In this document: in pieces, positions 1 to 58,210 of the stretch
Layout: each line of letters opens with the position of its first letter
Numbering within the stretch: the stretch's first letter is position 1
Notes under the pieces: model-generated
Database searches by the model: none
What the model saw: only the letters and a program-made list of their open reading frames with translations
What the model was told of the DNA's origin: nothing
Translations under genes and position numbers: made by a program
Assembly (NCBI GenBank): GCA_965235115.1
Contig: OZ249436.1
Span: 18,974,001-19,034,000 of the forward strand
Reading direction: 5' to 3'
Source of the DNA: Laetmonice hystrix
Lineage: Eukaryota
DNA length: 60,000 nt

Positions 1-432
1 TTGTGTCATGCTTACATGGTAATAAATTGAAAAAAACTCAAAAAATGTCAAAGTTTACTACTGAAATTTTACGGTCCCCCTCCCCCTTAAGATGTGTTTT
101 GAGTCAGCAACCTGGAATTGTATATATGATTCAAAAAACGAATCGGGCCCAACAACTGTTGTGTAGTGTGCATGTGTCAGTCTTTAATCAGGAATCGGGA
201 AAAATAGCAACTCAACTGTCGCGTCTTAGCAAGTCGTGTAATGTGCACCGGGCATGAGTGTGCCTCTGTCTGTAAAGATATACAATGACAATGTTTTCTG
301 TTTTTCACTTTCAGACTCAGAGTTGATGCACATTTGGTGAGAGTCTTGAACACCTCAAGACCAGTCTGATCAAGGCAGAAAGAGAGAATATCTGCTTCTC
401 AAGTATTAACTAAGTCTCAACAACATATCAAA

Positions 433-12600: not shown

Positions 12601-15600
12601 TCAAATCATCAAATTTTCAGAAAAATCCCCAGGTGACCCCCTTAGAATTCAACTATGTTTTGCATGTACATGTACTACAACATATATTATGAAGCCCTAC
12701 AAAATTTTAGGGCAAAATATCCAATAGTTTTGAAGATATGACCCTTTAAACATGCCTGGGGGGTGCGAATTTCGCGACCTTTTTTTCGCGTGTTATTTTT
12801 CATGTCATGTTCAAGACACTATAACTTTTGATCCAGAAGACGTAGAGCTCTGTAATTCTCAGGATTGGTTCATCTCACAGGCTGCTATCATGAGATATCA
12901 GAACAGATGCTTTTCATATTAACTGACATGTGATACAGATAAAGTCAAAAATCATGATTTCATCAATATGAATGTTTGCAAACCAACTTTTGGCCACGAG
13001 CCAGGCAAAAACAAACTGATGTCTTCTGATAGCAGCCTGTGAGATGAATCAATACTAGAAATTTCAGAGCTCTACTTCTTCTGGATCGAAGTTATAGGGT
13101 CTTGAACATGACATGAAAAATAACACGCGAAAAAAAAGCTTGCGAAATTTGCACCCCCCCCCAGGCATGTTTAAAGTACATGTATGCATAAAATGGTTGA
13201 ATTCTGACCCTAGTACCATCCTTTAAACTCAAAATCACAGTAAAATAAAAGGGTGATCAATGTCAAAATCACATGGGCGTCGCAAGGAAAATTGTCTTAA
13301 GTTGATCAGGCTCTTTAGAGTATAAGACGAATATTTTATCTGTGATATGTAGGCCAACAAGTAGATGGTCATATATCAGGTAGAAGTTTATTTTAATAAT
13401 TTCTGCAAATTATTGTGTTTTACCTTGCCTTTGAATGAGAAGAGTAGTGTTGAATAAGTACCATAATGTGAAGCACATTCAAACACATGTCAGGGTGAAA
13501 TTGTACCCACCAGCCTTGATGAGCATTTCGATGACTTCTGGTTTGTTTCCAAAGACTGCACCATGTAGAGGTGAATCACCTGTCTCTGTCATCACGTCGA
13601 TGCTGGCATTAGTATCCAGTAACAACTTGACAATGTCTGCAGTAACAAAATATAAAAACAAAATAACAGACACAGTATTTGTAGTGGGTTAGAAATGAAA
13701 ATCCATCTCCAAGGCTGGGGGTTTTGGGGGCTGTTTTAACCCCAGATTGCATCCAGGGGTGGCACCTTGAAGGAAGTCCAGGGGGCAAAGCCCTCGAATT
13801 AAGTGATTAGACACCCTTACAATATATTATTCATGCACCTAGATAGGCTATACTGGTAGTAGTACAAAAATACCCTTTGCCATGATTTGAACGGGAAAAT
13901 TTTCAGCGAGCCAATAATCACCTAAAAATTGAACGAATAAATATAAAATCAATGCAAAACTATATCATATCCGACATTTTCGTGAAACTTACTTTTTGTC
14001 CGAAAATCCGATCCAGTGGAGACAATTGGACAAATTAAGGATTTATGTTGAAAATTCACCATGCAAGGCAGGAAGATTTCATTAGTTTGTAATTGCACAG
14101 CTTATACAGCCTGTAAAAACAATACATTGATGTATGGAAGACCTACCAACATCACCACCGAATGCACTCTGGTGTAAGGGGGTCCATCCCTGCCTGTCAG
14201 CCACATTGAGATCACATCCGGAGTTAACCAGCAGTTTTACCAGCGACAGATGGCTATCTGAGGATCCAAAATACTGGCAGGCTGCAGGTAGAGAAGTTAA
14301 AATTAGGTCTTAGACTGAGAAAAATATTACAAAAGTAATCGATTAGAACATCAAAATTCAAATGGATCAATAAATCTTGACCGATGGGCTGTATGTATCC
14401 AAACACTACGGTATTGCCAATGCAACTAAACGTGGCAGCTACATTTTTTTGGATATGACTCTGAAGTTGTATTGCGTGGTTGTAGGTTTTGTCATCTGTC
14501 ATTCTGGTCTTGAATATCGCCCTGATGAGAGCAACCATAATGATTTCTCACACAAACCTATTAACATGAGTCATTGCCTGGCGGCCGTCAAATCTCTTCA
14601 CATAACGATTGCTTTCTGTCTTGATGACAATTGTGAACCAATTACGGCCATATAAACTTTGTCACTGATCTTACACTGACCTGTTCTGACAGCAGCGTGG
14701 ATGGGCGCCTGTTTCGTCTCATATTCTGCAGTGTTCACATTGGCGCCAGCATCAGCCAGGACCTCCAAGACATTAACATACTGACCCCGAGTGGCCTCTT
14801 TGGAGAAAAAAAAAATCAATTATTCAAAACTATGAGATATCTGTTCGTTATACAACACCTGGCTTTCACTGTTCTCATGTTAGTCTGGTAACTTTATTCA
14901 GAACAATACTTCCTCTTGTATAATGATCATAAATGGGTAAAAGACGATCATCTTCTTCACTTCAATGGGAAATGTCTAACTTTGCCCACACATTTCACAA
15001 GGCAATATGCATGTACCCAAAATGAAGAAATTAGGGCAGCATTCTATAGGCCTAGTTAATCGCTCCAAGTAGCATACAAATGTGTTTTTTGAATGCTGAT
15101 TTGAGAATGTAGTTTACCTTGACTTTAAATGTCACTTATAAAATTCATTAAACATCTGACAGATTACTCAAAGAATTCTTTCATAGAAGTATTATTGATC
15201 CTGAACTTTTCTGCACATTATCAAGAATCATCAAGCACTTTAATGTGATTGTTAGAGTTCTTCCTACCCAAAAATGGAGTGCATCCTTTGGTATTAGCCA
15301 GGTCCAAGTTAGCACCAGCGATTGTCAGCTCTCGGACTACGTCAGTGTGACCAGCCTTCGCTGCTAAATATAGTGCACTACATCGATACTGATCTGTAAG
15401 GTTGAGGTCTGAACCTGCAATATATATAATATGACATATATAATATATATAATTCATCCTTCATATGAGATCACAACTGGATATAATATTCCACATGCTG
15501 TGGATTAATAAAACTGTATCTACACAAGTCCTATGTAGTTATTCAAGTTGATCTCACCAGATGCTACCAGCAGTTTAACAAGGTTCACATGTCCACGTTC

Positions 15601-38500: not shown

Positions 38501-39116
38501 GCGCCAGTTTCGGCGTCTTTGACTGTGGCTTGACGACAGAAGCGCCACTCTGCGCATGATAATAAGGCACGTAGCGCGTCCTTGAAGCGCCACCCATAAC
38601 ACCAAACTGATTTTACGGTTCGCGGTGTGACCCTCCGTTTACAGTGTAGTTTGATCAGGAACAGGACGAGTTAGAATGTGCATATTGATACATACATCTG
38701 TGTAAATAAGAGGTTACCATGATTTGTGAAGAGTTCAGAGACAATTTTGCAGTATATATTGCATTGCGCATTTCCCCTGTTTCGTCTCTGTCTGACTTAC
38801 AAGAGCGTTATTAGGTGGAGCGCAATTATATTCAGCGACTTAACGCTTGGCAAGTAGCTGGACAAGTTGACAATAGCATAGTCTGTATCACGCCTCCATT
38901 TTTCCGTGAGCAAGTAGACTCTTATTCACATGAGAAGATATTCGGTTGCAGTCCAGAGGCCGATGTCTTTGCAGCATGGTATAGAATGATGCCATATTTA
39001 CAACGAGAACAAACTGGCTTGATAACAAGGCTTCATATGACCTCTTTCTCGGCAGGCAGTGCCAGCTCAGATCATCTCCATGTTACCGTCATTAGAACAC
39101 AGAGGAAAGGCTGGCA

Positions 39117-39569
39117 TTAGCTTTTGGGGAAGATAGTGCACAAGGATACGACAATGATTGCTAGGTACATGCAGAAGAATAGCCGATCGAGAACCAGCGC
39201 TACTATTCTCCACTCCATCATCACCTTGGCCACTGCGTCTTTTTCCTGTAGCCGCGTCATAAACGACCGCAGCGCCCTCTTGATCTCGCGCACCTCGGAC
39301 TCCATGGCGACGTTATGTAAAGGTGACCTATCAGGGGTTTGGTAACGCGCCTGTACCGGACTGTCACTGCGCTGGGTCATGGACGGTGGTTCCCACTTAT
39401 TGTATGGTAGTATCGGCGACTTTATTTTGCGCTGTTTCTCTTTGCTGTTTTTCCTCCGTGACGTGCAGTCGGTGATGATCGTGTGATGTTCCGCGGTTCG
39501 TCGCTCGGACTCTTTTTTGGGAAAATCTCCGCGCATGAATACCCAGCGGGCGAGGCCGTCTATTAACAC
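39117..39569 (-). CDS. nAChR block A terminal exon (intracellular loop, MA helix, M4)
   Basis: cacacag|GTG TTA ATA GAC; ends [32 protein letters not shown]. Confidence 0.9.
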   Translation of the reverse strand: MLIDGLARWVFMRGDFPKKESERRTAEHHTIITDCTSRRKNSKEKQRKIKSPILPYNKWEPPSMTQRSDSPVQARYQTPDRSPLHNVAMESEVREIKRALRSFMTRLQEKDAVAKVMMEWRIVALVLDRLFFCMYLAIIVVSLCTIFPKS

Positions 39570-42500
39570 CTGTGTGCAGAAAAGCCACATATGATATATA
39601 CGTCTCAACCCTCATCTACCATAGGCGTCGGAACCGGAGTGGTGTTAGGGGAGGGGGTACCCCCAGAAAATATCTCTACTATCACAGAAAAGGTCAAATC
39701 TTCCCGGGAAAATGGCCAAACGGCCGTATAGCCCCCCTTTAATGAAAATAATGATTTCCCATCCGTTCTACAGGGATTCTGACGCCCATGCTTAGACTAG
39801 AGGCATATATTCATAACTGCCATGCAGCTACTTCTAATGCGTGCATTCACGAGTGACCAGTTTAGTTTTAAGTTCCATATCACACCATTCACCAAGTGCA
39901 GCAGTCAGACTCGGGGGTCCTCAGGAACGGAACCACGCGAGACCTGGGCCCCGTTTTTAGTTCGTCATTTTACCAATTTTAAGACTGGAATTTTAAGACT
40001 GACTTGTGTTATGGTCTCTCATTATCTGACTTCATTTGAAGGACCAATCAGAAGCTCTAAAACAAGAGTTCAGCCTTAAGATTTGAATCTTAAGACTGAG
40101 TTTGCAAACTAAAAACCAGGGCCGGGGATTAATCTTTTTGTTTTTCCCACGATTGGAGCATATCTTGTACATAGACAAACATACATTGCGCAGTTTTTTA
40201 AATGTTTGGATTACTTCTTCAAAAAGTCTTGCCTTTAGATTCTCAGCTTAACTTAGCTTGCCCTCTTAGAACTCATGATACAAATGTGCTGGGGTGAGCC
40301 GAGTTGGAAGAAGCTAAGTTGAGCTGAGCCGCTGACCTAGGTCCTTGTAACAAAATAAATCTACATCCTCAGGATATTCTCGATAGGAAAGTGAACACAA
40401 AATTTCAAAAATAAAAAATGTCCCATATGAATCACCCTTCGTGGGATACCAAATCTACAATTGTTCTTCGAATACTACTCAATGGCCTCACAACCACACA
40501 CGATGTTCGATGACCTACTTATGTACCTCCCCGTGCGACATGCAGGAGTGTTTGAACCAAAAACCGCCACCAAAACCTCGATCTGAGAGAGACACTGCCG
40601 ACACCGGCACCTCCTGCGTCTCACCACCGACTGATGGAGGCAGAATCTCCGTACAAGCAATTAACCCGCGCGGAATCCAGTCAATCACTTGGCAAGTAAA
40701 ACAATGGTCGACAATAAAAAAAACGAATTCCGTTCGCTGGAGGGCGCCGTTTCCGTGGTATTGTCAAGGTACGTTTTTACCCAATGTAATTTTTCGATCA
40801 CAGGAATGTGATTAATGTATTGTAACGGTTCGCATCGAGCCACAGATAACAATGTCACAATGGAAATAAGAAATACATTAATCGACAGATATGGAATTGA
40901 AGGCAGGAAGCAGGAAACACGACAATATTCTCAATAACAATCTAATGCCTTCCGTGAGAGAAGAACAAAAGCAAAGGACGGTGATGGCGGAAAGTGACAT
41001 TGCCATTCAGAATACTTCATTTTCCTAATGACAAAAGCTGTGGAGAAGTTATCAAGAAACATTGGTCCCAGTCGGAAGCAGTGTATACACGTCAGATCAG
41101 GAGGCCACGAAGTTTATTGGCTGGAAGCGACATTAACAGTGACCTAGAACTCGACTTTCCGTTCAAGCGTTAGCCGAGCAGGCCCCACATTCCCAGAGAT
41201 AGAGGATCTTTGCCAGGGTGGAAGGCAGAGGACATCGCCGTGCAGATTTCCATTTGCTGTATCACCAGCGCAGAAGAAGCAGCCGCGGGGTTAGAACAAC
41301 CACGTCACCAAGGGTGTTATGACAGGAAGTCAGCACAGGGGGCAGAGATGCGGGGGGAACGCGTCTGCACACGTAGGACGCCAGCCAAGTCAAAGACAAA
41401 ATCACACCCTACCCTTTTCATCCACCAAGGTACCCGATTTCGTCTGTCACCTCGGATATAAATGTTGATGACTATTACGGCGAGGAAAGTAGAAAGGGTG
41501 ATGAGCATCATAATGATACAAAAATAGGCTCCTGAAAACAAAACAGAAACACACCAACTATGTACCATACCCATGGTTACAGTATACGAAACTAACGGTC
41601 CGCACATCATAGGACTGCGATCAACAGCTGCGTAGCGAGGGTTGGTGGTGTCCCAAGTCAAGGGTCGAGAATGAAAATCCCTTTAGTATGGTGGCCCAGA
41701 AGTGCAAAGTGTTGTACTTCACAAACAATTTAAAATTCCTTCGCTTTACACTGAAATTCCTTCGCTTCACACTCCAATTCCTTCGTTTCACATTGAAATT
41801 CCTTGTCCTTTCAGACAATTCCTTGGCTTCACAGTAGAATACCTGGCCTTGACGCTGACATTTCTGTTCTTCACAGGCAATTCGCTGCCTTCTCAGACAG
41901 TTCCTTCGCTGCGAAGGCAAGGAATTAACTGAGAAGGCCAGAAATTTCAGTGTGAAGGCCAGGAATTCCACTGTGAAGGCCAGGAATTCCACTGTGAAGC
42001 GACGTAATTGTGTGTGAAGACAAGAAATTTCTTTGTGAACCACAGAAATTGTCTGTGAAGTACAGCAGTTTGTACTTCTGGGCCACTGTACATTCGAGAA
42101 TGAGCGCGCCCCCTGAATAAAATGAGTAGAGAGACTGTCTTTTTATCAAAAATATATCGGTAAAACAAAATGGTGGCCAGGGTACGGGTCCCCTTAATCC
42201 CTTGCTACGCCACTGTCAACTAGAGCGCTGGTCTTGACACAAAATGACGACAGTCTGGACTTCAACCCAGGATCATGGTATTTTTGTAACGGGAGTTGTG
42301 GGATTGTAAGGTACCGTTTGGAACAAGGTAATTGTGTGACGTCATTTAATGTCGCGACCAAGAGCTCAGCCCGCTCTCAGTATCCAGGTGGTCGTGCGGT
42401 CTATGGCACCATACCCTTTTCATCAAAAATGGCACTCTAGTCCTCTTGTCACCCCGGAAGTATAAGTTGATCACAATGACGGACAGGAAGGTAGATAGAG

Positions 42501-45500
42501 TGATGAGCACCATATTGAGGCCAAAGTAGGCGCCTGAAATGATAACACGAGCAGAAAAAAACATGATCTTTGTTCGATATCAATATTCAACTCGTTTTTG
42601 TCTCATCTGTTGGTAAGGGTAGATGCGCGCGCAGAAAGCCAGTACAATGTATTACATAGGCCTAATATATCCGGAGAGTCCGGCATGGTACTACCCATCG
42701 GCCCCACGAGAGGTCAAATTTGAAACATTAAAGGAAAAAACAAAACGGAAAATAATAATAATAATTGAGTAATGATACACTCTGTTGGATAGTATGATCT
42801 CTGTTGCAGTTTGGATAGTACGATCTTTGTAGTTTACAAGAATTGTTTGACAATGATAATAGGTATTTTGGAAGAGGACTTACTCCCTACCAACGTTTTG
42901 GGCACGGCCAATTTACATAAGAGTTTTGAACTTCAAAGTTGCAATTCACGTCTACTACATTTTGTACTTTATATCATTAATACAATTTTATATATTTTAA
43001 GATAACACTTGGCGACATCTTTGACGACACTGCCATTTCCCTGCAAGACTCAAGAATAAGTTTATATCCACACCCATAAGTACTCCTCAAATACTTGGAA
43101 ATGAAAAACATAATTCGACATAATTATTAGTGCAGTACTTAGTTAAGGAACTCCCAGTTACTGAAGAAGTACAAGACCAACCTTTATTTAGCATCTTTAG
43201 TCTACGATATGGACTAGGACAACGTAGCATTAGATAGACGTACATAACTTACCTATAAAAGGGACAGATGGTAACGTAGATAACTTACCTATAAGGGAGA
43301 CAGATGATAACGTAGAAGGGGACAGATGATAACATAGATAACTTACCTATAAGGGGGACAGATGGTAACGTAGAAGGGGACAGATGATAACGTAGATAAC
43401 TTACCTATAAGGGGGACCGATGATAACGTAGATAACTTACCTATAAGGGGGACAGATGATAACGTAGATAACTTACCTATAAGGGGGACAGATGATAACG
43501 TAGAAGGGGATAGATGATAACGTAGATAACTTACCTATAAGGGAGACAGATGATAACGTAGAAGGGGACAGATGATAACATAGATAACTTACCTATAAGG
43601 GGGACAGATGGTAACGTAGAAGGGGACAGATGATAACGTAGATCACTTACCTATAAGGGGGACCGATGATAACGTAGATAACTTACCTATAAGGGGGACC
43701 GATGATAACGTAGATAACTTACCTATAAGGGGGACCGATGATAACGTAGATAACTTACCTATAAGGGGGACCGATAATAACGTAGATAACTTACCTATAA
43801 GGGGGACAGATGATAACGTAGAAGGGGACAGATGATAACGTAGATCACTTACCTATAAGGGGATAGATGATAACGTAGATCACTTACCTATAAGGGGACA
43901 GATGATAACGTAGATAACTTACCTATAAGGAGGACCAATGATAACGTAGATAACTTACTTATAAAGAGATAGATGATAACGTAGAGAACTTACCTATAAG
44001 GGGGACAGATGATAACGTAGATAACTTACCTATAAGGGGGACAGATGAGGATGCGGGAGGCGTAGAATCAGATAGGATCCGCAGTAGCAAGAAAAATGCT
44101 ACAAATATGTTCATTCCTATGGAGAGATAACAAGACAACAAATACGATTTAAAAGGGAACTTCTGATTTATCCTCGATGATGAAAAGATGAAACTGACTA
44201 ATATATATGGAAATGCAGTGGGGATCCAGGATTTTGCACTCTCCGGACAGAGATCGTTCACTTCATTCAATCTCTGCCACACATTGGGTACATACTCTAG
44301 TATACAGTGACTGTTTGCGGGGCGAAAACCATCACTGTAAGATACGCCCTCTTCACGGACCCGAGATGGGTCTAGATCATTGCGCAGAGCGTTGTGCGGT
44401 GTATCCCGCTGCACGGACAACATGCATGATTCTGAGTGTGTTTATGACATTTTCTCAATTACCCTTCTGATGACATTCGAGTAATTATTCCATTACCGAT
44501 ATCGATGTCCCCATCCATTACTGTGTATAGCTAAAGGCACCCGTGACGGGCAGCCAACCAGCACGGACTGTTTGAACACCCGGATTATATTTAAGCTCAT
44601 TCATGAATACATTCGGTGATCTACTCTGACACTTCACAGAGGATATAATTATTTCGGCGCAGAAATTCGACATCGTGGATTTTTTTTTATTCCCGCAGGA
44701 TGATGAACGCTAGAGAAACGCTGAGCGAACGCCGGGTCGGCACGCATCAAAGAGAATGCGTGGACGAGGGACACTCACCAAGGATCATCTTGGCGGACGA
44801 CTCGGGAGGCAGCCAGAAGATGACGAGAGTGATGGACGAAAGCAGGACACAGGGAAGGATCAGAATGTAACTGTAGAAGGCACCCATACGTTTGACCTTG
44901 AGCGTGAAGGTCAGATCTATGTAGGGTTCCTCGCAGCAGGGGTATCGCTTTTCGTTGCGGATAGCTGGGTGTTCGACCAGAACCCACTCATTACTCTCGA
45001 TGTAATCATTGACGTCTACTTCGTCCAAGTTGTCGTAGAATACAAGATCAAGTTTATGGCCGTCGTAAGTCCAGGACCCGAACTTCATGTGACAGGTCTG
45101 CTCATCAAACGGGAAGTGAGTGATGTCGATGGCACAGGTACTCTTGTATATCCCCATGGGGATCCACAGGACCTGCCCATCACGGCTGACGACGGCCAGG
45201 GCTTCTCTCTGCTCCGTCAGGCGGACGTCGGCACTGATACACAGCAAACGGTGATGTCAGCACGGATACACAGCAAACAATGACGTCGGCACTGATACAC
45301 AGCAAACGGTGATGTCAGCACGGATACACAGCAAACAATGACGTGGGCACTGATACACAGCAAACGGTGATGTCAGCACGGATACACAGCAAACAATGAC
45401 GTTGGAACTGATATACAGCAAAGAATGGTGCCATTACTGACCCACGGAGCAAACAATGACGTCAGTACTGACACACAGCGTTAACAATGACGTCAGCACG

Positions 45501-45897
45501 GACACACAGCAAACGATTACGTCAGCATTGAACACAAATAATAATGTTACAATGACGTCAGCACGACTTCCAAATCAAACATCCAAGACAACCTAAAAAA
45601 AAACGATTGAAAACTTGTAGAAACATTAGTTCCTTGGATGGTAGAAAGATGTTCAATTATCGGCCAAATCACCACCCAAAACATTCATCTGAATTAACTG
45701 CAGTCCAGTGGACGATAAACTCGGACAAAGTGTTTGTAATTCGTCTGATGAACATATTTGTGCGCCTGGAAGGCGCGGCTGACTTACTAGTTATACAGGA
45801 CGATGTCGGGGGTCCAAATCTTCTCAGACGGCACTCTCACGTGGTCCACCCCACCGAAATCTTCCGGGTTCCATCTGAGGAGAATGTCGTTCCACGT
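39117..45897 (-). CDS. Nicotinic acetylcholine receptor alpha subunit, anion-selective type, block A (no own exons 1-3 found)
   Basis: Exons 45897-45788 ([14 protein letters not shown]), 45233-44779 (Cys loop, [10 protein letters not shown]1, PESSAK), M2 44116-44030, M3 42533-42415 or 41531-41413, last exon 39569-39117. Internal exon sizes (110, 455, 87, 119 nt) match block B and there are no stops. Confidence 0.9.
39946..40123. mobile_element. Harbinger-like MITE
   Basis: ggccccgtttttagtt / aactaaaaaccagggcc with internal ttaagact motifs. Confidence 0.55.
41413..41531 (-). CDS. nAChR block A alternative M3 exon b
   Basis: tttcag|GA GCC TAT..AAA AGG|gtaggg; encodes [40 protein letters not shown], 119 nt. 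Confidence 0.86.
41689..42088. mobile_element. TA-target MITE between the two M3 exons
   Basis: ta|tggtggcccagaagtgcaaa..gtacttcaca / tgtgaagtac..tttgtacttctgggccactg|ta; internal 21-bp repeats in both orientations. Confidence 0.8.
42415..42533 (-). CDS. nAChR block A alternative M3 exon a
   Basis: tttcag|GC GCC TAC..AAA AGG|gtatgg; encodes [40 protein letters not shown], 119 nt. Confidence 0.87.
43245..44048. repeat. 36-bp (with 22-bp sub-unit) minisatellite containing the block A M2 splice donor
   Basis: About 19 copies of aacttacctataagggggacagatgataacgtagat. Confidence 0.95.
44030..44116 (-). CDS. nAChR block A M2 exon
   Basis: ccatag|GA ATG AAC..CTT ATA G|gtaagt; encodes [30 protein letters not shown]. 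Confidence 0.88.
44779..45233 (-). CDS. nAChR block A Cys-loop/loop C/M1 exon
   Basis: Within ORF 44747-45247; acceptor tatcag|T GCC GAC, donor CTT G|gtgagt. Confidence 0.92.
45224..45565. repeat. 29/58-bp minisatellite containing a block A splice acceptor
   Basis: Units gacgtcggcactgatacacagcaaac.., degenerating away from the exon. Confidence 0.88.
45788..45897 (-). CDS. nAChR block A 110-nt ligand-binding-domain exon
   Basis: ttgtag|ACG TGG AAC GAC..AAC TA|gtaagt; 4 amino-acid differences in 36 versus the block B exon, with many synonymous changes. Confidence 0.88.
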
Positions 45898-47354
45898 CTA
45901 CAAATATACACACCACAGGTTTCCATCCGGGTTCTTTGGATTCACACCCATTCACACTGGGCCCCTGGCAGGATCCACTTAGTGGGTTGGTGGGGCGGGG
46001 GATACTTCTACCAGAGGACCATCCTCAGCTCAATTTTGTAATCAAAGTTTATTGTAACTTGGCCCTGGCTGTTGCTGGGAGGTGAAACTCCATTGCAAGT
46101 TGCGGAGAGGTCCTTTTCTTGGGCATCTAGCCGAACTTGAATAAAACCCTGACATCGCGTCGAGTTATGGTTGTAATATTATTTTATTCATTATTATGAA
46201 TTCATCAAGTTATACATATTAGGCTCTTGTTTTACTCGTATTCAATTGCATGTCATAGTTTGATGATGATCAATATTGATATGATTCATGATTGATCAAT
46301 ATTGATATGTTTCACTCAGTATTTTTGGGGGTAATGTACATGTAGGCCTAGGTAGCAAGACTAGTAAATTGTACTTTGTTTTCCATGTTTATTCAAGTGT
46401 GGGAGTGTATAGCATGCGTAAATAAAACTGTTGACCGCGCGGAGCGAGAAAATTTTTTGGTCTTTTAATTTTTTTAGCAGTTTCGGGCAGATTTGTTTAT
46501 AAATCTACTGGCTGTCAACAATCTATTTTTTTCACACACATTGCTAAACAAAGTATTTTTTTCACAAACATCTGGGAGCAAACAATTTTTTTGGGTCAAC
46601 TTGGCAAACAAACTATTTTTTCTACAAAAAAAAACCATACCCCCCAGCTATTAAATGGTCTGCCCCTAATCATAATCGGACTTCATTCAAATTTTACATA
46701 AAGATTCATGCTTCTTTGTAAAATTATAAAAAATATATCAAGAATTTATTGCAATAACTTTAAAGACTGTGAATACGGTCTGCATCTAATGTTAATTGAC
46801 TCCTGTTGAACCCGAAAGAATGCGGTACTTTCCACAGAATTGTGGTGTCACCTATATCTTTCGAAACACAAAGATTAATTTTGAGGTGGCAGAAAATCAA
46901 ATAACTCGATCTGGAGTCCTGGGCCGGTTTTACTAAAGGTCGATAATAACGCCGTCGATAATTTAACATAGAAGTGAATGGTTGCTAGGTCGTTATTTTA
47001 GACGTTAAATGTTAAATTATCGACGTCGTTATTTTCGACTCTTGATGACGGCAGGGCGTCGCTTGATGAGTCTGTTTTTTTTGGTCCCTCGCTGGTCGGA
47101 CCTTCCGTCGTTCGTTATGAAACATCCCCCAATCACAGCTGCCTCTAACATCTTTAGGCCAATAGTGACTCGAGTGCCGAATTCCAAAACATATATCACT
47201 GATACCTTACAATGTCTTATTTTAAATTAAATCAACAAGAAGACAATTTTTACTCAAATATTTACTCCTCTTTATTGAGCAATGACTTACAGCGGTAATA
47301 TATAAAGGTACATACAAAAGCCGGGCGCCCAGGTACACTCTGATATAGGTCTTC

Positions 47355-47900
47355 TGGCCTGGTACAGGTACTTTGTCCGGCCTGGTACAAGTACTTTGTC
47401 CGGCCTGGTACAAGTACTTTGTCCGGCCTGGTACAGGTACTTTGCCTGGCTGGGTACAGGTATTTTGCCTGGCCGGGTACTGGTACTTTCTCCGCTCTCG
47501 TACCGGAACTTCCGGGTACGCATGCCTTCAGCAGTCAGTGACGCATTCTGGGAGTGGGTTGAGGATTTGCCCACCAGCATCGACATGGTTGACTGGTCAT
47601 TGGCCGGCATCTATGACATGGTTGACTGTTCATTGCCTAGTAACCATGCTATGGTTGACTGGGTATTGGCCGGCAGCCATAACATGGTTGACTGTTCATT
47701 ACCCAGTAACCATGCTATGGTTGACTGGTCATTGGCCGGCAGCCATGACATGGTTGACTGGTCATTGCCCGGTGGCCATGACATGGTTGACTGGTCATTG
47801 CCCGGTGGCCATGACATGGTTGACTGGTCATTGCCCAGTGGCTACGCCATGGTTGACTGTCATTGTCCTGTAACCATGCCATGGTTGACTGGCCATTGCA
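47355..47900. repeat. Two adjacent minisatellites (23 bp and 33 bp)
   Basis: cctggtacaagtactttgtccgg about 6 times (47355-47490); catgacatggttgactggtcattgcccggtggc about 10 times (47580-47900). Confidence 0.9.
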
Positions 47901-50900
47901 TCGACTGATCAATACAAATGAGCTTTACACCCACAAATCTATTGCTGGTGCTCAGGTGATATGTATCCTAGAATTATCAGTTTTAGGAACCCATCCTTGT
48001 GGTTAACATCGACGGTTCATGTTAGAACGAGAAATCTACAGGTTTGAATGTTGGCAGGGGGACATTCCTTTTACACAGGATGCGATACAAATGACACCAT
48101 GTATTTATAAGCCCACCTTGCACGGTATTCATGAGTCATCAATAGCAAACCTAAAACGCAATAAAGACAGGCCCAATGTCATCGCAATTGCTCATTACTG
48201 CCAAAGATAGTACACACATGTAGTGTACTAACGGGGAGGGAGGTTCCGGATGGTTAAACCAACAACCCAAGAACCTTGGCCTACGCTGGTACATGGGCTT
48301 CCAGGATAGCAAACTGATCCGCTGAGCAATGCTTTGATTTACGTTGCAATGCATTGATCCAATGAACAATGTTTTGATCCACATAGCAATGCCACTTATC
48401 AATGCCACAGATGAGGATAGAGGAACCTCTATTTCAGCCTTTTTTTCTTCCTTTTTGTAGACATGAATTATCATGAATTAGCTTCAAATGTATAGGCCTC
48501 CACTAATCTTTCTTTATACATCAAGTCCAATGATCATCCTGTAATCTGTTCTGTATGAGTGTGGTATATAATTATTAGGGAAGACCAAATTATTCACGTA
48601 ATGAAAAACTGCGAGGGTTACATATCCCAACTGTACGGGCATCTTTGGACGATATACACACATTACAAACCCGCTAGGGACTATTTTTGTGTATCTCCCA
48701 ATGGTGTGCTTACAATTCCAAGGCTAGAAATTGGTCTAACAGAAAGGTTGGAATAGAAGAGGTAGGCCTACGCGCCAATTTGGACAACATCACGACATAG
48801 ATTTGCATCGCAGCAAGGGATCCTCTATTTTAATTAAAGAATCTGTTTGCAGTGTTATGACTCTTGGGTTGTATTTCTACAAAATGTGTGTTAATCGGCA
48901 CTGGTCATCTGTGAGGAGGGATACCGGATCGGGTGCGCATCACAGACTTTAAATATCGATGATTGTCAGCCAATCGGACGTCGACCCAAGATTGTGACGT
49001 CAGCCAGGCCCGACACTCGCCCACTGTGACGTCACACCGTTATCGTTCGCTTGACATGCATATATCAGGATCACATAGCATACATTAGGCCTATATCTAG
49101 TTATTACGCATGAGTTATATTGTTTCCGTCGTCTCTAATGTTACTTGTCTCACGTGATGATATCGGTTTCTTCGGGGGCACTATTAGTTGAGCCTAATTG
49201 GCTCACCTTTGAGTGACGTAACAATGGTGCATTTGACAAAGTAAAATCTCAGCTGTGTGGCTCTTCAAGTTCGGTCTGGAGGAGGGTGGCACTCCGGTTG
49301 TTGTGGCGGTCAGACCACAGCGACATCTGTCGTATAAACCCAGAGTTGTGTCACCGATGTGTTGACGGGGGAGGGGGTCCGAGCCGAACCCCACCTTGTC
49401 ACGTGATTACAAAGACGCCGAAGAAGTACCAGATCAAAGGATCACGACTTCTAAAAGACGACTATAGAAACAGGTGCGCCCGGAAGGAGAGAGATGTGCC
49501 CCGAAGGCTGGTAGCTTCAGCAGCAGCTGCTTTGTTAGTACGGTTGATACGAATAGTGCCCCTATGTGACATTGATAACCTCTCTCTATCTAAGGATGGG
49601 CCTGCTAATGATGGTCACGTGACCAGGCGCACAGGTGGGACGTAAGGTGAGAGACGCCAGTAAGGAGACGCTCCACCGGACAATGGGTGTGGGTCACAGA
49701 ACATCTCGAGGGAAGAGAACAGTGGGCGATTATGACCTCATTTGAAGGAGAGACGAACTGAAGACAAGGCGGAGGCCTATTGCTATTACTCGCACGTTCT
49801 GATTTTAAAACATACAGTTACCAAAGCCATGTTTCCACTGCTCGGGGAACAAACACTCAAATCTGGCATATTCTGGCCAGCTTTATAACCGATATATACA
49901 ATTTCTGGCGGTCATCACTAGTAATACTATTGGCAAATCCGATCTCCCAAACTAGGCCTATAGCTAATGTTTGAGAGTATAGGTTTGAATGGAATCGTTT
50001 AGGTTTTATGGAAGTCAGTTTTGATCTAGCGACGTTTATATTTGTTGTGCAGGAATGATCTGAAAAGGAGAGTTCACATATCAAAGCGGGCCGACCATGT
50101 GGACGCGCTTCAATACAAACTATCTTAACTATACGCCTCGCTTTGAACACGGCATACGGGTGAGGCCAGCCAATCAGATCACGTTTTACTAGTGGCATCT
50201 GACTGGCTGCGTAGTTTTAACGTTTTACGAAGCGACCCACAATAAACTTCACTCCTTGCTTCCGCTGTAGATCTATGCTCACTGCAGAGGTGTTGCCATG
50301 GTAACCAGTCCAAATGACTGGTCGTCTTGGTGACTGGTTCTTATGTACAGGTTGGCGACGACTGGAGGTGCAGTAGGCAATGTCTCAACGATCGGTCATC
50401 ATCATACTGCATAATAATAATATCAGAACTAACCAATTTTGACGATTAGTGTCGTGGCGCCTTAATGACGGCGACACGTGACCTAACATTCGGTAGGGTA
50501 TATAAAAAGGGGATGCTCACCCATACTGGCTGATTGAGATACGTACCAAACGTCGTTAGGTTTGTCAACGAATAATGCAACAAAGTTGACGTCCATTACT
50601 TGACCAACTCTACGACAGAACTCGGTGTCTGAACATCACCTCTACAGCAACAATAAAAACAGGCATGTAGACCTAGCAGGTTACAACATCTCGGCTCCGA
50701 ACTGTGAATACCTTTACCCGCTCTGTGAACTTGTATGTCAATGTTTCTGTATAAATTGAACTTCATAACATGTAGGCAATTGAATTAATCAACACATCAT
50801 CCTTATATACCATGACACGACCTTACGGCCACACCCTATACCCACTAGTAGATTGCCTTGTCTATTTGAAGTCGGATACACCTTCTTTTACTATGGAAAT

Positions 50901-52071
50901 ATAATTCCTATATACCTTATCCTCTAGCTACTTGCTTACCTGGATAACGTACTAAAAGGTAATTTGATGGCGATCTCTTAACGCTATATGAATATTTGTT
51001 CTTTATTACTACCCACCTCTGTCTGTCTCCTCGAACAGTTACAACAAGATAAAGCAAGTGTCATTTCTCACATCCACTATCGGCCACACACATTCATTCC
51101 AACATAATATCGGATTGACATCAATGCAAATCAACGAAACTGGCATTTCTTACGGTCTAATGTGATTACCTCCATATCAACAAATGTGATTTAGAATACT
51201 GGGATACAAATCTTAAACTACGACATTTTTATGACCGTGCCGACACTGATATAGCCTCCTCACTGTATTATATATATTGGACACCGTTTACATTAGCTGT
51301 ACATCCCGAACTATATCAAAGGAATCACTGGTCAGTATAATGTCTGTTTGTCAAACAACATCAAGCACGGACGCCCATGAAAGTAGAAAAAAATCAAAAT
51401 TCATAAACCCCGTACCGTAACGGTCAGACTTGCTGGCCACTTGTTATCCTGCCGCACATTTCTAATATAAAACGTGTATCTCCACGGGTCCAGGCCGATG
51501 CTTCAACGCACCGCACGTGGGGATGGGGAGGCCCATGACTAGAATATCCCTAATGACTAGGATGAATAAAGTCCTCTTGGCAAGCCAGGTAGGCGTAGTT
51601 GTATGCAAGTTGTACATAATCCGTTGTACATTGCGTCACCGTATTGTGACGTCATCGCACCACGTCGTGCATTATCTTGGATGGAAAACCACGTTATGGA
51701 TTTCCCTGCTCACGGCTTTATGGGTAACGAAAAGCCTGGTCTCGTTAAATCTCGCCATATCACAGACATCTGGCGTGAACATAGTGGACGTCCCAAATAG
51801 GTAACAAGGTCAAGGCAACGTAACCTGACTACGTAACAGAGTATCAACTGCCAAGATAATTTGGAACAGGGACTGCTACGTCGCCGTCACATCCGGGTAT
51901 CTCTCTCTCAACTGCTATCCTCGACGTAACTGAAACCTTGGACGAGATGTGAGAGTAGACCAACCAGTAGCACCGATTCTGGGAAGGCAGTTTTCAAAAC
52001 AAAATCTACACTTAACATATTCACACAAACAGATGACGGACACGAACTGGTCTTTTTTTTGCATTTGAATT

Positions 52072-52515
52072 TCATGCTTTCGGGAATATGGTTGCCAAGG
52101 AAACAATAATCGTACACAAGTACATAAAGAAGAAAAGCCGATCCAATACTCGGGCTACAATCCGCCATTCCTTCGCCACTTTGCCTTGAGCGTCCTTTTC
52201 ATTTAGACGGTTAATAAAGGTCCGCAGGATCCTTTTTATTTCTTTAATGTCATTTTCTATTGCTTGATTGTGCAATGGCGAATAGTCTGGCGTGGCGTGA
52301 GATCGAGAGGACGTGCCCCCGTCTCGGTAGCCGTCAAACACAGGCGCTTGAAATTTATTGTATTCAAGCTTTGGACATTTTATTTTCTTTCTTTCCTTCC
52401 CGTGTTTGCTGTGTGAGCCGTCAAGGCTCACTGTATGGTCTTGCCGCGAGGTGTCTGCGTCTGTGACCACCTCACTGCGCATGCACAGAATTCGAGCCAG
52501 GCCGTCGACCATTAC
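52072..52515 (-). CDS. nAChR block B terminal exon (intracellular loop, MA helix, M4)
   Basis: ttttag|GTA ATG GTC GAC; ends [32 protein letters not shown]. Confidence 0.9.
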   Translation of the reverse strand, partial: VMVDGLARILCMRSEVVTDADTSRQDHTVSLDGSHSKHGKERKKIKCPKLEYNKFQAPVFDGYRDGGTSSRSHATPDYSPLHNQAIENDIKEIKRILRTFINRLNEKDAQGKVAKEWRIVARVLDRLFFFMYLCTIIVSLATIFPKA

Positions 52516-55500
52516 CTAAAATATAGAAAAAAGGGGTTACATTTTACACTACCTTTGTATATCTCATTACCCGCGATATAGTTCTTTACGCCAATGGTGC
52601 GTGATATTAAAAGTGTCTGTCTAAAAAGCTGAACAAGTATGGAGAAGACGCATGCATACAAGGCCAGGGTAGCATGGGTTCAGCACATTGGTTACAAGCC
52701 AAAACAGCAAGCGCTTCAAACCTAATGGTGTCGAGACAGACTTCGGCCACAGTGTCTCATAGAACTCTACGCGGGCGTGCCCAGAGCCGCACGCAGCCAA
52801 GGTTGGGGGGGGGGGGGGGTATAATATTATGTCCAAAAAAGTAATGTTTTCAGGATTATCTCGGAGTGGGGGAGGGGTGGTGGCTTCTCCCAGCCTCATC
52901 CTTACTAGACTAGGTACGGCCCTGGTGTCTCGCCCTACACAAATCGACCCTGGCAAACCTGTGCGGTGTCAATACATGAATCCTCTCAATAACCACTATT
53001 TATACACGTGGACTGAGCGTCACGTGACATAATACCACGTGACTTGACTCTTTTACTCAGATTACTCACCCGTTTGAGCCATTTGGGCACCCGGCTTCTT
53101 TTATCTCCCCGGAAGTAGAGGTTTATCACGATTACCGACAGGAAAGTCGATAGTGTTATAAGAATCATATTTAAACAAAAATACGCCCCTGGAACAAAGA
53201 GAGAATATCATGTAAGTGGCCTCCAACGTTACCTCAATAACGTTCTCAATCTGCTACATTACTGATTCCAAAGCAGGGTATAATATCACTAATGATGGGG
53301 TATTCCAAAGATATTACATTGGAATCACTGAAGGGATGAGCTGGAAATAACTTAAACAGATTTGATATAAAATCATAGTATTATTTAAATATTAGCGCCT
53401 AGATACCTTTGGAAATATGTAATACTTCGACAATTACGTATTGTTACATACGTTTACGTCCGTATTAAATTTATTGTTCTAAACACAATAGGCAATATTA
53501 CGATGGCCATACTTAGGATGATCATGTTCAGTTGTAGGCCTATCTAATGAGGCCGTCTGTAGGTGAGCCTTTCACAGATATCACCAAAGCACACACTGGG
53601 AGTGGCGGGTTGCTAGCCGGAGGTTGCCGTCTGCTGGAGCAGGCGAACGCTGTCCCGTCAACTAGGGGGCGCTGCGGCGCCTACTTCCGGCAGACGGCAG
53701 CCTCGATGTCCTTTTGCATGTGCACCGGTGTCTCCATCTAGCGGAATCAATCCAAGTCTGCGTTCTTTTGATCACTTCAGCCTGCGTCTCAATTTTGTAC
53801 ACGCGTTTGCATCGTTAGGAGGAGTCGCACTGGACCCAACTAACGAAACACCTTGGACTTTGAGACTGTAACGTCCATTTTAATTTGGAGTGGGGACTGC
53901 TGTGAGTGCGCCAATTTTGATTGCTTACATTGAGCCCGCCGTCGTTCCACATTTCGTCACAGGTCAACAATGCCTCCGACACAACCGGGGCAAGGGGAAC
54001 CATGCCTCCGACACAACCGGGGCAAGGGGAACCATGCCTCCGACACAACCGGGGCAAGGGGCTACCGCGGCGCCCTGCTAACACTAGGGGACCTGAATTT
54101 ACCAGTGTATGAGTATTTCCGTCTTTCTGTATTTCCAAATGGTCGGGATAATAAAAGAAAAATGTGTAATTTCTGTGAATAACCGCAGTGGTAGGTGTTT
54201 CACACGTCTATGAAAATACTGATGCAAAACTCGTGCATAACTAAAATACTCTGAATCCAAATGGGTGGCTGTGACCCTCGCTTGACTTTTGGTTCTTGTA
54301 TTTATAAAATAAACAGGGCCCCGAAAAAAAGTTGAGAATTTCTCGTTGACGACATTATCTGCCGTGTGATGTTGAATGAAACGGATAAACTTTATCCGTA
54401 CACGTCTGGTTGGCTGCCATCAGGGTTTTCGTTGGTCAAATAAAACGGAGAGGGCATAAAAATAAGGAAGTTAGGTATGGACTTCGAAAACCCGATTCCT
54501 ACCTATGAGCGGCACTGAGGACGCGGCGGGCGGCGTGGAGTCGGCAAGTAGTAGGAGCAACAAGAAAAATGCCACAAATATGTTCATACCTGGGTATAAA
54601 GAGGAGACAATAGGAGATCGGCGTCAATGATCAAAAAACCAGGCATGAAGTAATGATTAACACAATGGAAGACCTAACAACTCATAATGTAACGGACTAG
54701 GGGCGACGAACGGTGCACATCCAGAACGGCTCTAAGTATGGAACAGAAAAAACATTGGAAGCCGGCCGCAGTACATTGGAGGTATGGATGGAAACCGGGT
54801 TGGCCTACCTATGAGAGGTATGGAAGAGGCGGCCGGAGGCGTAGAGTCCGCTAGTAGAAGTAGTAAGACGAAGAACGCCACAAATATGTTCATACCTGCA
54901 TAGGGTAAAGGGAGGCACACCATTTAATGTCTCATTTACAAAAAACGCGAACGCCGCACAGATCTGGTCCTTTCTCTGATGTTAGTTTTCGACAATTTGG
55001 AAGCGGCCGGCGAACAAAGATCGTGGCGTACGTTTTGTTTGTCTCCATCGTTTTTGTCTTGAGGTTCGGGTATTAATATGTTCACACGGACTGTGGCGTA
55101 CGTTTACTATTTATTCGATAAAAAGAAACCTGACAACTGCGTCTTAGAAAGGAGGCAACTATGACGGTGTCTCAGATCGGAAGCCAGCATACCGGCGTCA
55201 TAAAATGCCAGCATCGCCTGAGGACGTTCTGACAACTGATCTGGTGCCGTCATGTATCAACTGATCTGGTGCCGTCATGTATCAACTGATCTGGTGCCGT
55301 CATGTATCAACTGATCTGGTGCCGTCATGTATCAACTGATTTGGTGCCGTCATGTATCAACTATGGCGGATTTATCTAACCGTAGCACCGCTCGATCGCT
55401 CTATCCTACTCATCGTCATATTGCAAGAAAACAGCAGAAGATTACTGTTTTGTGGAATTTCAGAAAGGGTGATTTCAATTCCACGACGGCTTGTCCAGCA

Positions 55501-58210
55501 ATGTTGTCAATAACGAACTCGTCTTTCCACACGACGACACATTGGCTGGACAGACACCAGCCTTATACTCTGGATCTGCTGGATCTCTGGATCTGGAACT
55601 TTATGTCTCTAACATCTCTAACATAACTCTGCCTCCGTATAACTTTACATCCCGGCCTCACCGACCTATTCCATCTTGACGTCTCGGGTCTAACAGGCCT
55701 ATTTCTTCTTCACGTCTCCGGCCAACGGAACAATGCCTCCTTATAGAACTTTACAGTGACCATGAATACTAATTCAAAGAAGAGTAGAATAAGGTCACGT
55801 GACGTGACACGGAGACGCCGAACATTAGATTCACGGCAATCGACGCTGGTAGAATCGGTCACTCTAACCCCTCCGTCTCACTACGATCGGTAAAAGTAAG
55901 TCAAATACTTCCAATTTACGATATGCCAAGATATGCTCAGACACGAACATGAAAGATTGATACGGGGGAAAACTAGAGGAAGAGATGTTTCGAACTCGTC
56001 TGTTAGTACAGCGGCCAAGGCGGGTTTTCCTGCGCGCTTTTTCAATTCTAGCGCAAAGCAACAGGGAGTGAAGAGGACAACTTTGGAAGTGTTTCATGCC
56101 ACTAAAAGATGCCAAAAAGATTTCCCAACGTAGGAAGGAAGATAACGTGGACACATAGGGGACCATGACAGATCATCATGTACTCGCCTTCCTTAATGTG
56201 GCACCGTTTGGCGCGCTCTAGCGGATGTAAACTAAATCATGATTAAATGCGTATCTTTATCTTTACCTTATAAATGTTCCATTACGAAACTTTTACAGCA
56301 TTTTACATTGTAAGCAAATAAACTTACTATGTGATATTATACAGAGTTCTTACTGCAATATGAATACTGACATTACTTGATATTGAATTAAAATTGTCGA
56401 GTTACAATTAGGGGAAGGCGCAGGCTATCATTTCTTTAATATATCGTGGTTTTTATGTCTGCCTTGAGCGCCGGGTATATGAGAGGAAGTGAAAAAACAC
56501 AGGCATAACACGTCAAGGGCGACAGTACTGGCCAGACAGCATAATCCGGGACAAGGGCTGAGTCCTGGCCAAGGAGCTGGTCCTGGACCCTGGACAAGGA
56601 GCTGGTCCTGGACAAGGATCTGATCCTGGACAAGGAGCTGGTCCTGGACAAGGAGCTGGTCCTGGACAAGGAGCTGGTCCTAGACAAGGATCAGGTTACC
56701 TTCCAGGTTTGTCCGACCAAATATTGCTAAATTCAAAATGATCCAAATGGTCACTTCCTGATTCGAGAAAATCGTGATAATATCACGTGATGGGGGGGGG
56801 GGGGACGCCGGCATTAGGCCCCCTTATCGGGGGGTCTTCTTAAAAAGTTAAAGTTTTTCTGGGTGCTAATTTGAATGACTTGACCCTGGATGCATTGTTG
56901 TTGTTCTAGTTCATTAGGACGACGGGAACTGTTATGGATAGTGTCGCCTCAACATTGAGTTATCATCAGGAAGGCACAGAACCCTCTTTATACCGTGACA
57001 TATAGTTCCTGGGGCGTGTTGGTAATTCGATGTGTCACAGGTGAGGGAGGATGGGGGGCCATACTGCCGCCGTTGAGGTTGGGAATACGCCCGCTACTTA
57101 CCTAAAATCATTTTGGCTGGGGACTCCGGCGGTAGCCAGAACACCACCAGTGTCAATGAAGATAGCAACACACACGGCAATATAAGGATGTAGTTGTAGA
57201 ACGCAGCGATACGTTTTAATTGTAGAGTAAATGTCAAATCAGGATAGGGCTCTTCGCAGCAAGGGTAGTACTTGACGTTCTTCTTGGCCGGGTGGCCGAG
57301 CAGAGCCCACTCATTGCTCTCTATGTAATCACTAACATCAACTTGTTCCAAAGCATCGTAGAAATCAATATCCAGTTTAAAACCGTCATACGTCCACGAT
57401 CCGAACTTGAGGTGGCAGACCTGTTCGTCGAACGGGAAATGCGTGATGTCAATGGAGCATGTCGACTTGAAGATGGCCATAGGGATCCAGAGCACCGTAC
57501 CATCGCTCGATACCACAGCCATCGCCTCGCGCTGCTCCTTAAGACGCGTGTCGGCGCTGGACGCGGCAGGAAGTGACGTCAGAAGAGGGCAGACGGCAGG
57601 TAGTGGCGGGCGAGGGGAGGGAAAAGGAACAGCATAGGATCACCAACAGGACGTGCGTGGGCACTCGCTAAACTTATCACAACCTTCATCGAAACTCAAT
57701 CTATCCAATATACGCATCTCGAAAACTCTAGCGAGGATGGGCGGAAAACATTCAGGAAATCGATCTCAAAACTTCCTTAAATCTAATTTAGAAGACAACA
57801 GATATTTAACGCCGTAGATCTCACAAAGATGGAAAACGCAAATGCAGCTATTTGGCCCGTCTGTATTGGATGTTATAAGATACCAGTGCCCGTGTATTAC
57901 AAGGTGCGGTTGACGAAGCCAACTCATAGACTCATCATTTCTTAAAGTTTCCTCTCGCTATTACTCACTTTTATAAATCAGAGTATATATACTCACTAAC
58001 TATGAAGCACTATTTAGGCCCACTCACTATTGGGTGGAGGAACTATTTGTAAAGCAGTGTGTGTTGTGTAGTCACTAGATATTAGGGAGTGTGTACTCAC
58101 TAGTTATAAAGCACTATGTCCGGGGTCCAGATCTTGGTGGCAGGTACACGAACGTGATCCACGCCTCCAAAATCATCAGGGTTCCAACGAAGTAAGATAT
58201 CGTTCCATAA
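52072..58210 (-). CDS. Nicotinic acetylcholine receptor alpha subunit, anion-selective type, block B (exons 1-3 outside the window)
   Basis: Exons 58210-58101 ([14 protein letters not shown]), 57556-57102 (Cys loop [15 protein letters not shown], loop B WTYDG, loop [11 protein letters not shown]1, PESPAK), M2 54895-54809 or 54589-54503, M3 53188-53070, last exon 52515-52072 (M4 [10 protein letters not shown]). All GT-AG and phase-compatible. Confidence 0.92.
53070..53188 (-). CDS. nAChR block B M3 exon
   Basis: ttccag|GG GCG TAT..AAA CGG|gtgagt; encodes [40 protein letters not shown]. Confidence 0.9.
53659..53674 (+). promoter_or_regulatory. CTCF-like motif
   Basis: caactagggggcgctg is close to the CTCF core CCACTAGGGGGCGC; motif match only. 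Confidence 0.35.
53968..54062. repeat. 33-bp tandem repeat, about 3 copies
   Basis: atgcctccgacacaaccggggcaaggggaacc. Confidence 0.9.
54503..54589 (-). CDS. nAChR block B alternative M2 exon b
   Basis: cccag|GT ATG AAC..CTC ATA G|gtagga; encodes [30 protein letters not shown], 87 nt; absent from the ORF track. Confidence 0.86.
54809..54895 (-). CDS. nAChR block B alternative M2 exon a
   Basis: tgcag|GT ATG AAC..CTC ATA G|gtaggc; encodes [30 protein letters not shown], 87 nt. Confidence 0.88.
55233..55362. repeat. 25-bp tandem repeat, 5 copies
   Basis: caactgatctggtgccgtcatgtat. Confidence 0.93.
56555..56692. repeat. 18-bp tandem repeat
   Basis: ctggacaaggagctggtc about 7 times. Confidence 0.9.
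57102..57556 (-). CDS. nAChR block B Cys-loop/loop C/M1 exon
   Basis: Overlaps ORF 57094-57522; acceptor gtccag|C GCC GAC, donor TTA G|gtaagt. Confidence 0.93.
58101..58210 (-). CDS. nAChR block B 110-nt ligand-binding-domain exon
   Basis: tttcgcag|TTA TGG AAC GAT..TAT AAC TA|gtgagt; encodes [36 protein letters not shown]. Confidence 0.9.

What the first reader, a model, noticed from the sequence alone, without database searches (positions are those of the whole stretch)
41413..42533. Duplicated M3 exons in block A, exclusive by reading frame
Seen: two 119-nt M3 exons (phase 1 to phase 0). Including both would frameshift, so productive mRNAs must carry one. They differ substantially (YFGLNMVL vs [20 protein letters not shown] vs [12 protein letters not shown]). 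Inference: splice-selected tuning of the M3/MX region; I know of no comparable M3 switch in nAChRs but cannot search.
Basis: partly seen in the sequence, partly recalled or inferred. Interest (0 to 1): 0.7.

Follow-up and report, generated by a model that had tools for sequence, protein, structure and literature searches.

The report
Alternative M3 exons, worm acetylcholine receptor
A probably annelid acetylcholine-receptor gene of the chloride-channel type carries two intact, well-preserved copies of the exon for its third membrane helix, most likely used one at a time, a new variant of an exon-swapping habit already known from insect receptors.

Summary
Observation confirmed: two 119-nt GT-AG exons (42533-42415, 41531-41413, minus strand), phase 1 to 0, each completing an open nAChR frame; both together stop after 7 codons, neither shifts the frame. 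They differ at 11 of 39 residues with pS 0.69 against pN 0.14; a model with one neutral copy reproduced this in at most 0.14% of runs. Mutually exclusive splicing is likely (0.78) but inferred, not observed. The frame only filters the products; no selector pairing was found. The gene belongs to the spiralian Pro-Ala (anion-type) clade, annelid by best hits. No second M3 was found in 21 related genomic loci that span M2 to last exon; an M3a-like exon exists elsewhere (P0198, 34/39). A partial precedent exists: Bombyx alpha8 exon 7 pair covers TM2+TM3. The larger context is more unusual: block A has no exon 2/3 of its own here or in an orthologous contig, so blocks A and B may be alternative 3' halves of one gene, and B has a conserved M2 exon pair.

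The parts
42415..42533 (-). M3a exon, 119 nt: M3 helix, post-M3 loop, start of MX helix; carries G4, T31 and L36, each absent from all outside peptides counted
   Evidence: homologue P0198 34/39 identical
41413..41531 (-). M3b exon, 119 nt; keeps C4, N31, W36; carries I6, absent from 131 outside peptides
44030..44116 (-). Block A M2 exon (87 nt, single copy); its donor is the first unit of a minisatellite
44779..45233 (-). Block A exon: Cys loop, loops B and C (vicinal Cys), M1 and M1-M2 linker ESSAK
45788..45897 (-). Block A 'exon 4' (110 nt, phase 0 start), first nAChR exon found for block A
39117..39569 (-). Block A last coding exon (rest of MX, loop, MA, M4, stop)
41690..42091 (.). High-copy palindromic (MITE-like) element in the 883-nt intron between M3a and M3b
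   Evidence: summed contig depth about 3000-5000 against 55-61 in run X1; folds into one long hairpin, -207 kcal/mol
45898..52071 (-). Gap between block B stop and block A exon 4: no exon 2/3 match; one AATAAA at 51007 within 3 kb of the block B stop
   Evidence: best score -1.0 bits against 97-105 bits for true exons 2/3 in four control loci
58101..58210 (-). Block B 'exon 4' (110 nt, phase 0 start)
57102..57556 (-). Block B Cys loop to M1 exon, linker ESPAK (Pro-Ala motif)
54809..54895 (-). Block B M2a exon, 87 nt
54503..54589 (-). Block B M2b exon, 87 nt; the pair recurs in related loci
53070..53188 (-). Block B single M3 exon, 119 nt
52072..52515 (-). Block B last coding exon

Best explanation
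M3a and M3b are tandem duplicated, alternatively used exons. The block A transcript joins the M2 donor (44030) to one of the two acceptors and that exon to the last exon, giving two full subunits identical except for 11 residues in M3, the post-M3 loop and the first turn of the MX helix. Shown: anatomy, frames, selection signature. Inferred: that both are spliced in; that choice is made by splice-site competition and regulators, with double inclusion removed by nonsense-mediated decay rather than blocked by spacing (intron 883 nt, all GT-AG). Most likely functional effect (inferred): assembly and surface delivery plus gating or lipid modulation, not ion selectivity, since the M1-M2 linker and M2 are shared. 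M3a lacks the MX tryptophan (L36) that M3b keeps; the matching W330 in alpha7 is needed for functional surface expression.
For: Frames. pS 0.685, pN 0.139, Fisher p 4e-7. One-neutral-copy simulation: at most 0.0014 of 5000 runs at each of 5 distances matched 28 or more same residues, no stop and 14 or more synonymous codon changes. Flanking 150 nt of intron align no better between the copies (scores 14, 13) than against block B (17). Normal splice sites. No remains of other exons between the copies. An M3a-type exon in another record, P0198. The family duplicates exons repeatedly: M2 in 14 of 80 loci, M1 in L016 and L019, exon 4 in L001, two M2 in the Dimorphilus model P0004. W36 aligns with the P-x-W of alpha4 and muscle beta subunits; W330A abolishes alpha7 current (10.64898/2026.04.02.715926, passages).
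Against: 0 of 21 full-span related genomic loci, 5 of them of block A type (L067 and L074 by tree, L046, L047 and L070 by M2 motif; partly redundant), hold two M3 exons. No M3b-type exon with I6 among 129 representative hits. Each copy has lost a residue that is nearly fixed in the clade (M3a C4 130 of 131, W36 80 of 94; M3b N6 115 of 131), which fits relaxed constraint as well as specialisation. The selection signal cannot exclude recent loss of use. No pairing element stronger than shuffles was found (best -16.4 against null mean -20.9 kcal/mol). In 5-HT3A the matching W347A keeps current, so the tryptophan argument is receptor-dependent.
Confidence: 0.78

Rival explanations
1. One copy is a constitutive exon and the other was constrained in the past but is now silent (recent pseudo-exon).
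For: Pair not found in relatives; each copy has lost a near-invariant residue; a transposon-like element sits between them.
Against: No stop or indel, normal splice scores; for four contig pieces all listed differences fall outside the exons (few sites, little power); simulation rejects long neutrality.
Confidence: 0.12
2. M3b acts mainly as a poison exon: included after M3a it truncates the subunit after M3 and lowers expression through decay.
For: Double inclusion gives a stop 95 nt before the last junction; M3b has the stronger acceptor score.
Against: A poison exon is not read in the M3 frame, so it would not show pN far below pS in that frame.
Confidence: 0.06
3. Origin rival, compatible with alternative use: M3b is not a local copy of M3a but an old second M3 type, the one found as sole M3 in clitellate-like paralogues, kept or captured in block A.
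For: M3b is up to 32/39 identical to those peptides against 28/39 to M3a; on codon positions 1+2 it groups with them (80/86), and on all positions the constrained tree is 2.26 log units better, p-AU 0.56.
Against: The free tree on all positions pairs M3a with M3b (92/69); both share M37 (2 of 94 outside) and the same 3' end; the shared residues recur in other lineages (A17 36 of 131, R29 55 of 94); those paralogues sit outside the block A clade. Neither tree is rejected.
Confidence: 0.3
4. Assembly artefact (two haplotypes or paralogues merged).
For: A high-copy element lies between the copies.
Against: 73% identity with near-saturated synonymous sites is far beyond the few differences per kb seen between the contigs and the window; both flanks are unique and at equal depth.
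Confidence: 0.03

Closest known systems
Bombyx mori nAChR alpha8 alternative exons 7 (PMC2045683, passages)
   Same: Tandem duplicated alternative exon that changes TM3; lineage-restricted and comparatively recent.
   Different: That exon also covers TM2, copies are 86% identical, cation-type insect subunit. Here the exon covers M3, post-M3 loop and MX start only, 72% identical in residues.
Insect nAChR alpha6 exons 3a/3b and 8a/8b/8c; alpha4 exons 4/4' (PMC2064938, passages; PMC6393475, listing)
   Same: Mutually exclusive tandem exons in an alpha7-like exon layout; exon 8 corresponds to the M2 pair of block B.
   Different: No M3 exon pair is described in the passages seen; different clade and predicted ion selectivity.
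Nematode GluCl avr-14 A/B (PMC8841521, passages)
   Same: One gene, spliced variants that differ in the channel-forming C-terminal region; a model for blocks A and B.
   Different: GluCl, not nAChR; here the duplicated part would begin at exon 4 (most of the binding domain) and each half would hold its own exon pair. Sharing of 5' exons is inferred only.
Spiralian anion-selective nAChRs: Lymnaea subunits, Schistosoma SmACC (PMC4055736, passages)
   Same: Same protein clade by search and tree; Glu replaced at the M1-M2 linker.
   Different: Block A has Ser-Ala where block B has Pro-Ala; the term 'splic' does not occur in that paper's main text.

Membership tests
nAChR alpha-type subunit | Ligand-binding domain with Cys loop (C-x13-C) and four membrane helices | tested here: met
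   PF02931 E 2e-32, PF02932 pieces; exons for M1-M4 present
nAChR alpha-type subunit | Vicinal cysteines in loop C | tested here: met
   YPCC in both blocks
nAChR alpha-type subunit | Signal peptide and N-terminal exons 1-3 | tested here: inconclusive
   Exon 2/3 absent between blocks; any shared ones lie beyond the window end
Spiralian anion-selective nAChR (Lymnaea/SmACC type) | Pro-Ala in place of Glu at the M1-M2 linker | tested here: inconclusive
   Met in block B (ESPAK); block A has ESSAK, Glu absent but Pro replaced
Spiralian anion-selective nAChR (Lymnaea/SmACC type) | Falls in that sequence clade | tested here: met
   Top hits include a Biomphalaria 'subunit type B' and trematode subunits; tree of 44 rows without an outside group
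Spiralian anion-selective nAChR (Lymnaea/SmACC type) | Chloride current on acetylcholine | not testable with these tools
   needs expression and recording
Mutually exclusive tandem duplicated exons | Neighbouring homologous exons of equal length and phase with own splice sites | tested here: met
Mutually exclusive tandem duplicated exons | Both copies under coding constraint | tested here: met
Mutually exclusive tandem duplicated exons | Transcripts with each exon alone, not both | not testable with these tools
   needs RNA of this species
Mutually exclusive tandem duplicated exons | Pair conserved in relatives (supporting, not required) | tested here: inconclusive
   0 of 21 full-span loci; the two closest block A loci are cut short; M3a-like P0198 without context
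Mutually exclusive tandem duplicated exons | An exclusion mechanism (steric, splice-site class, RNA pairing, decay) | tested here: inconclusive
   Spacing 883 nt and GT-AG rule out the first two (recalled criteria); no pairing above shuffles; premature stop present
avr-14-like alternative 3' halves | Downstream half lacks its own 5' exons and has a compatible phase | tested here: met
   No exon 2/3 in 6175 nt here or 5606 nt of L002; both exons 4 begin in phase 0
avr-14-like alternative 3' halves | Transcripts with one 5' part joined to either half | not testable with these tools
   No protein pair with the same N-terminus and unlike halves among the 79 of 105 examined that had the exon 4 motif; needs long reads

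The most novel reading that the evidence does not exclude
Blocks B and A are not two genes but alternative 3' halves (exon 4 to end) of one annelid anion-type nAChR gene with shared 5' exons, and each half has its own one-of-two exon choice (M2a/M2b in B, M3a/M3b in A): a nested splicing scheme giving four subunits, in a clade where exon 4, M1, M2 and M3 have each been duplicated in some lineage, with the M3 choice switching the MX tryptophan that governs assembly.
Probability: 0.4. Interest if true: 0.7.

Novelty: new variant of a known kind. Interest (0 to 1): 0.5.

Why it matters
Alternative exons in nicotinic receptors are known from insects, mostly in the binding domain and M2. A pair confined to M3 and the MX start gives a natural experiment on the part of the subunit tied to chaperone-dependent assembly and lipid or modulator action, with pore and binding site held constant. 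It also shows that the little-studied spiralian chloride-type receptors diversify by exon choice and possibly by alternative gene halves, not only by the gene expansion reported for lophotrochozoans (PMC6896357, passages), so gene counts and models in annelids may be wrong for this clade.

Tried and rejected
RNA: no RNA holder listed for 38700-42600; three DNA contig sets of one sample were laid instead. No listed contig piece bridges the repeat between M3a and M3b, which proves nothing either way. Annotated isoforms of relatives' genes and the DNA around P0198 were not examined; this leaves open whether the pair is annotated or present elsewhere. Sequence upstream of block B in the related contig and beyond the window end was not seen, so shared 5' exons remain unseen. 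A search with the block A last exon among longer proteins found nothing (0 of 262 candidates). M3b-like hits looked like orthologues but match the sole M3 of other paralogues. RNA pairing scan of 39570-43232: nothing above 40 shuffles outside the repeats. A hairpin-like similarity after the two block B M2 donors is not kept in related loci. No conserved non-coding match between window 38001-60000 and 9 annelid-like loci. An M2+M3-like patch at 40.7-41.0 kb was tested as a third copy or processed fragment and rejected (3-10% of control windows score as well; profile score -0.1 bits). One search used the block A M2 exon one base off; its M2 comparisons with block A are void and one search has the right ends. 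The locus search kept 80 of 111 confirmed stretches; 3 transcript-like loci were left out of the span counts and 3 gapped loci out of the M3 tree. Paper searches for an M3-only pair or splicing in annelid nAChRs found none; the library lacks most subscription papers and no supplements were read.
Full report
Observation. Joined by coordinates between the M2 exon (44116-44030) and the last exon (from 39569), either gives an open frame; both give EPIFVSL and a stop; neither shifts the frame. The stop lies 95 nt before the last junction. The intron between them is 883 nt and holds a high-copy palindromic element.

Are both copies alive? They share 87 of 119 nt; 14 codons are the same, 14 differ silently, 11 change the residue; pS 0.685, pN 0.139, Fisher p 4e-7. 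Simulations with one copy neutral matched the observed pattern in at most 0.14% of 5000 runs at each of five distances; at the shortest distance residue identity alone was matched in 19% of runs, so the synonymous load carries the argument. Flanking introns no longer align. Splice sites score normally. In three DNA contig sets of one sample, possibly the source sample, both exons sit at flank depth, and for four contig pieces every difference counted is a listed one outside the exons; with so few sites this adds little. Constraint in the M3 frame means each copy has been translated as M3, which is possible only in place of the other. Recent loss of use cannot be excluded.

What gene is it? Pfam gives the ligand-gated channel domains. 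Best single-domain hits are annelid (Owenia 74%, Dimorphilus and Capitella 72%), then other spiralians, including a Biomphalaria 'subunit type B' and trematode subunits; annelid origin is an inference. Against alpha4 the M1-M2 linker lacks the glutamate: block B has Pro-Ala, the anion-type motif described in PMC4055736 (passages), block A has Ser-Ala. A tree without M3 places block A with L003, the Paralvinella and Lamellibrachia models and clitellate-like loci (96/84), and block B nearest L002 and L005. L002 and L003 are one contig with the same B-then-A order.

Conservation. A profile scan found a second M3 in 0 of 80 loci; 21 of them span M2 to last exon as genomic DNA, five of block A type, partly redundant. 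The two closest block A loci end 478 and 437 nt after M3, short of where M3b would lie. Among 129 representative hits scored, P0198 matches M3a at 34 of 39, sharing G4, T31, M37 and loss of W36, so the M3a type is not private to this genome; none carries M3b's I6. M3b resembles the sole M3 of other paralogues (up to 32 of 39), and trees cannot decide between a local duplication (92/69 on all positions) and an older link (80/86 on positions 1+2; p-AU 0.56 and 0.16, neither rejected). In contrast, block B's M2 pair recurs: two or three M2 copies in 14 of 80 loci, with the window's two peptides matched in L002, L004, L005 and L006, and both copies in the Dimorphilus model P0004. M1 is doubled in L016 and L019 and exon 4 in L001. 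An intronless piece, L014, joins the first M2 copy straight to M3, a hint that such pairs are spliced one at a time in that lineage.

How it likely works. Steric exclusion and mixed splice-site classes (recalled mechanisms) do not apply: the intron is long and all sites are GT-AG. No pairing element beat shuffles. What remains is competition between the two acceptors, with double inclusion removed by decay (50-55-nt rule, recalled). So the frame enforces one copy in protein but does not pick it. The changes cluster at the top of M3 (4, 5, 6, 8), its lower half (17, 23, 25) and the post-M3 loop and MX start (29, 31, 35, 36). Among 131 outside peptides C4 is in 130 and N6 in 115; among 94 in register W36 is in 80. 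M3a has lost C4 and W36, M3b has lost N6. W36 aligns with the P-x-W of solved alpha4 and muscle beta subunits; I equate it with alpha7 W330 by motif spacing, not by a direct alignment. W330A abolishes alpha7 current and is partly rescued by RIC-3 or NACHO, while the same change in 5-HT3A keeps current (bioRxiv 10.64898/2026.04.02.715926, passages). The most likely effect is therefore on assembly and delivery, and on gating through M3 packing; selectivity should be shared. All of this is inference.

The larger anatomy. An exon 2/3 profile scores 97-105 bits on true exons in four control loci but at best -1.0 in the 6175 nt between block B's stop and block A's exon 4, and -3.3 in the 5606 nt orthologous gap of L002; neither holds an N. 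Both exons 4 are 110 nt and start in phase 0. The Lamellibrachia block A model also starts at exon 4. Block A therefore probably borrows 5' exons from upstream of block B, like the alternative C-terminal forms of avr-14 (PMC8841521, passages). Against: no protein pair with a shared N-terminus and unlike halves was found among 79 examined, and the shared exons lie outside what was seen.

Known and new. Insect alpha4 and alpha6 have alternative tandem exons (PMC2064938, passages; PMC6393475, listing), Bombyx alpha8 has an exon 7 pair at TM2 and TM3 (PMC2045683, passages), and such pairs are enriched in ion channel genes (PMC9741552, passages). Earlier notes of this scan list more arthropod cases, none for M3 (unchecked). 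Six paper searches found no M3-only pair and no such splicing in annelid receptors; coverage is partial and no supplements were read. Verdict: real feature, probably mutually exclusive (0.78), a new variant of a known kind; interest 0.5, rising to 0.7 if the nested alternative-halves reading holds (0.4).

Noticed in passing
window 45898-52071; L002 11204-16810: Block A has no exon 2/3 of its own in two species; blocks A and B may be alternative 3' halves of one gene.
   Followed up: partly
window 54503-54895: Block B has two 87-nt M2 exons (2 residue changes, pS 0.65, pN 0.05), matched in L002, L004, L005, L006; including both would keep the frame.
   Followed up: partly
window 43233-44048: A minisatellite repeats the block A M2 donor 18 times; the second donor would add 12 residues in frame to the M2-M3 loop, later ones meet stops.
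   Followed up: partly
L016 4444-4973; L019 1909-2165: Duplicated M1 exons whose copies differ at the selectivity linker (ESPAK against ESAAK); in L019 the M1 and M2 pairs are each separated by only about 50-65 nt.
   Followed up: partly
L001 5678-5960: Two exon 4 copies about 60 nt apart, in a locus that also has two M2 exons.
   Followed up: partly
L025 5999-7788: Three M2 copies, one strongly diverged and longer.
   Followed up: no
L014 162-1035; L024 233-882: Partly intronless copies of the gene (M2-M3-last or M3-last joined, intron-like sequence in front), 82-90% like genomic loci; possible processed copies.
   Followed up: partly
window 41572: The 9-mer of the M3a donor recurs 41 nt upstream of the M3b exon; three copies in the window's minus strand; possible decoy donor or chance.
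   Followed up: partly
window 39943-40127: Very high-copy short element in the last intron of block A (summed contig depth above 250000 in run X1).
   Followed up: no
window 370-4223 (+) and 9623-16212 (-): Exons of a DHHC-palmitoyltransferase-like gene and of an ankyrin-repeat/SOCS-box-like gene, named from recall of the open frames.
   Followed up: no
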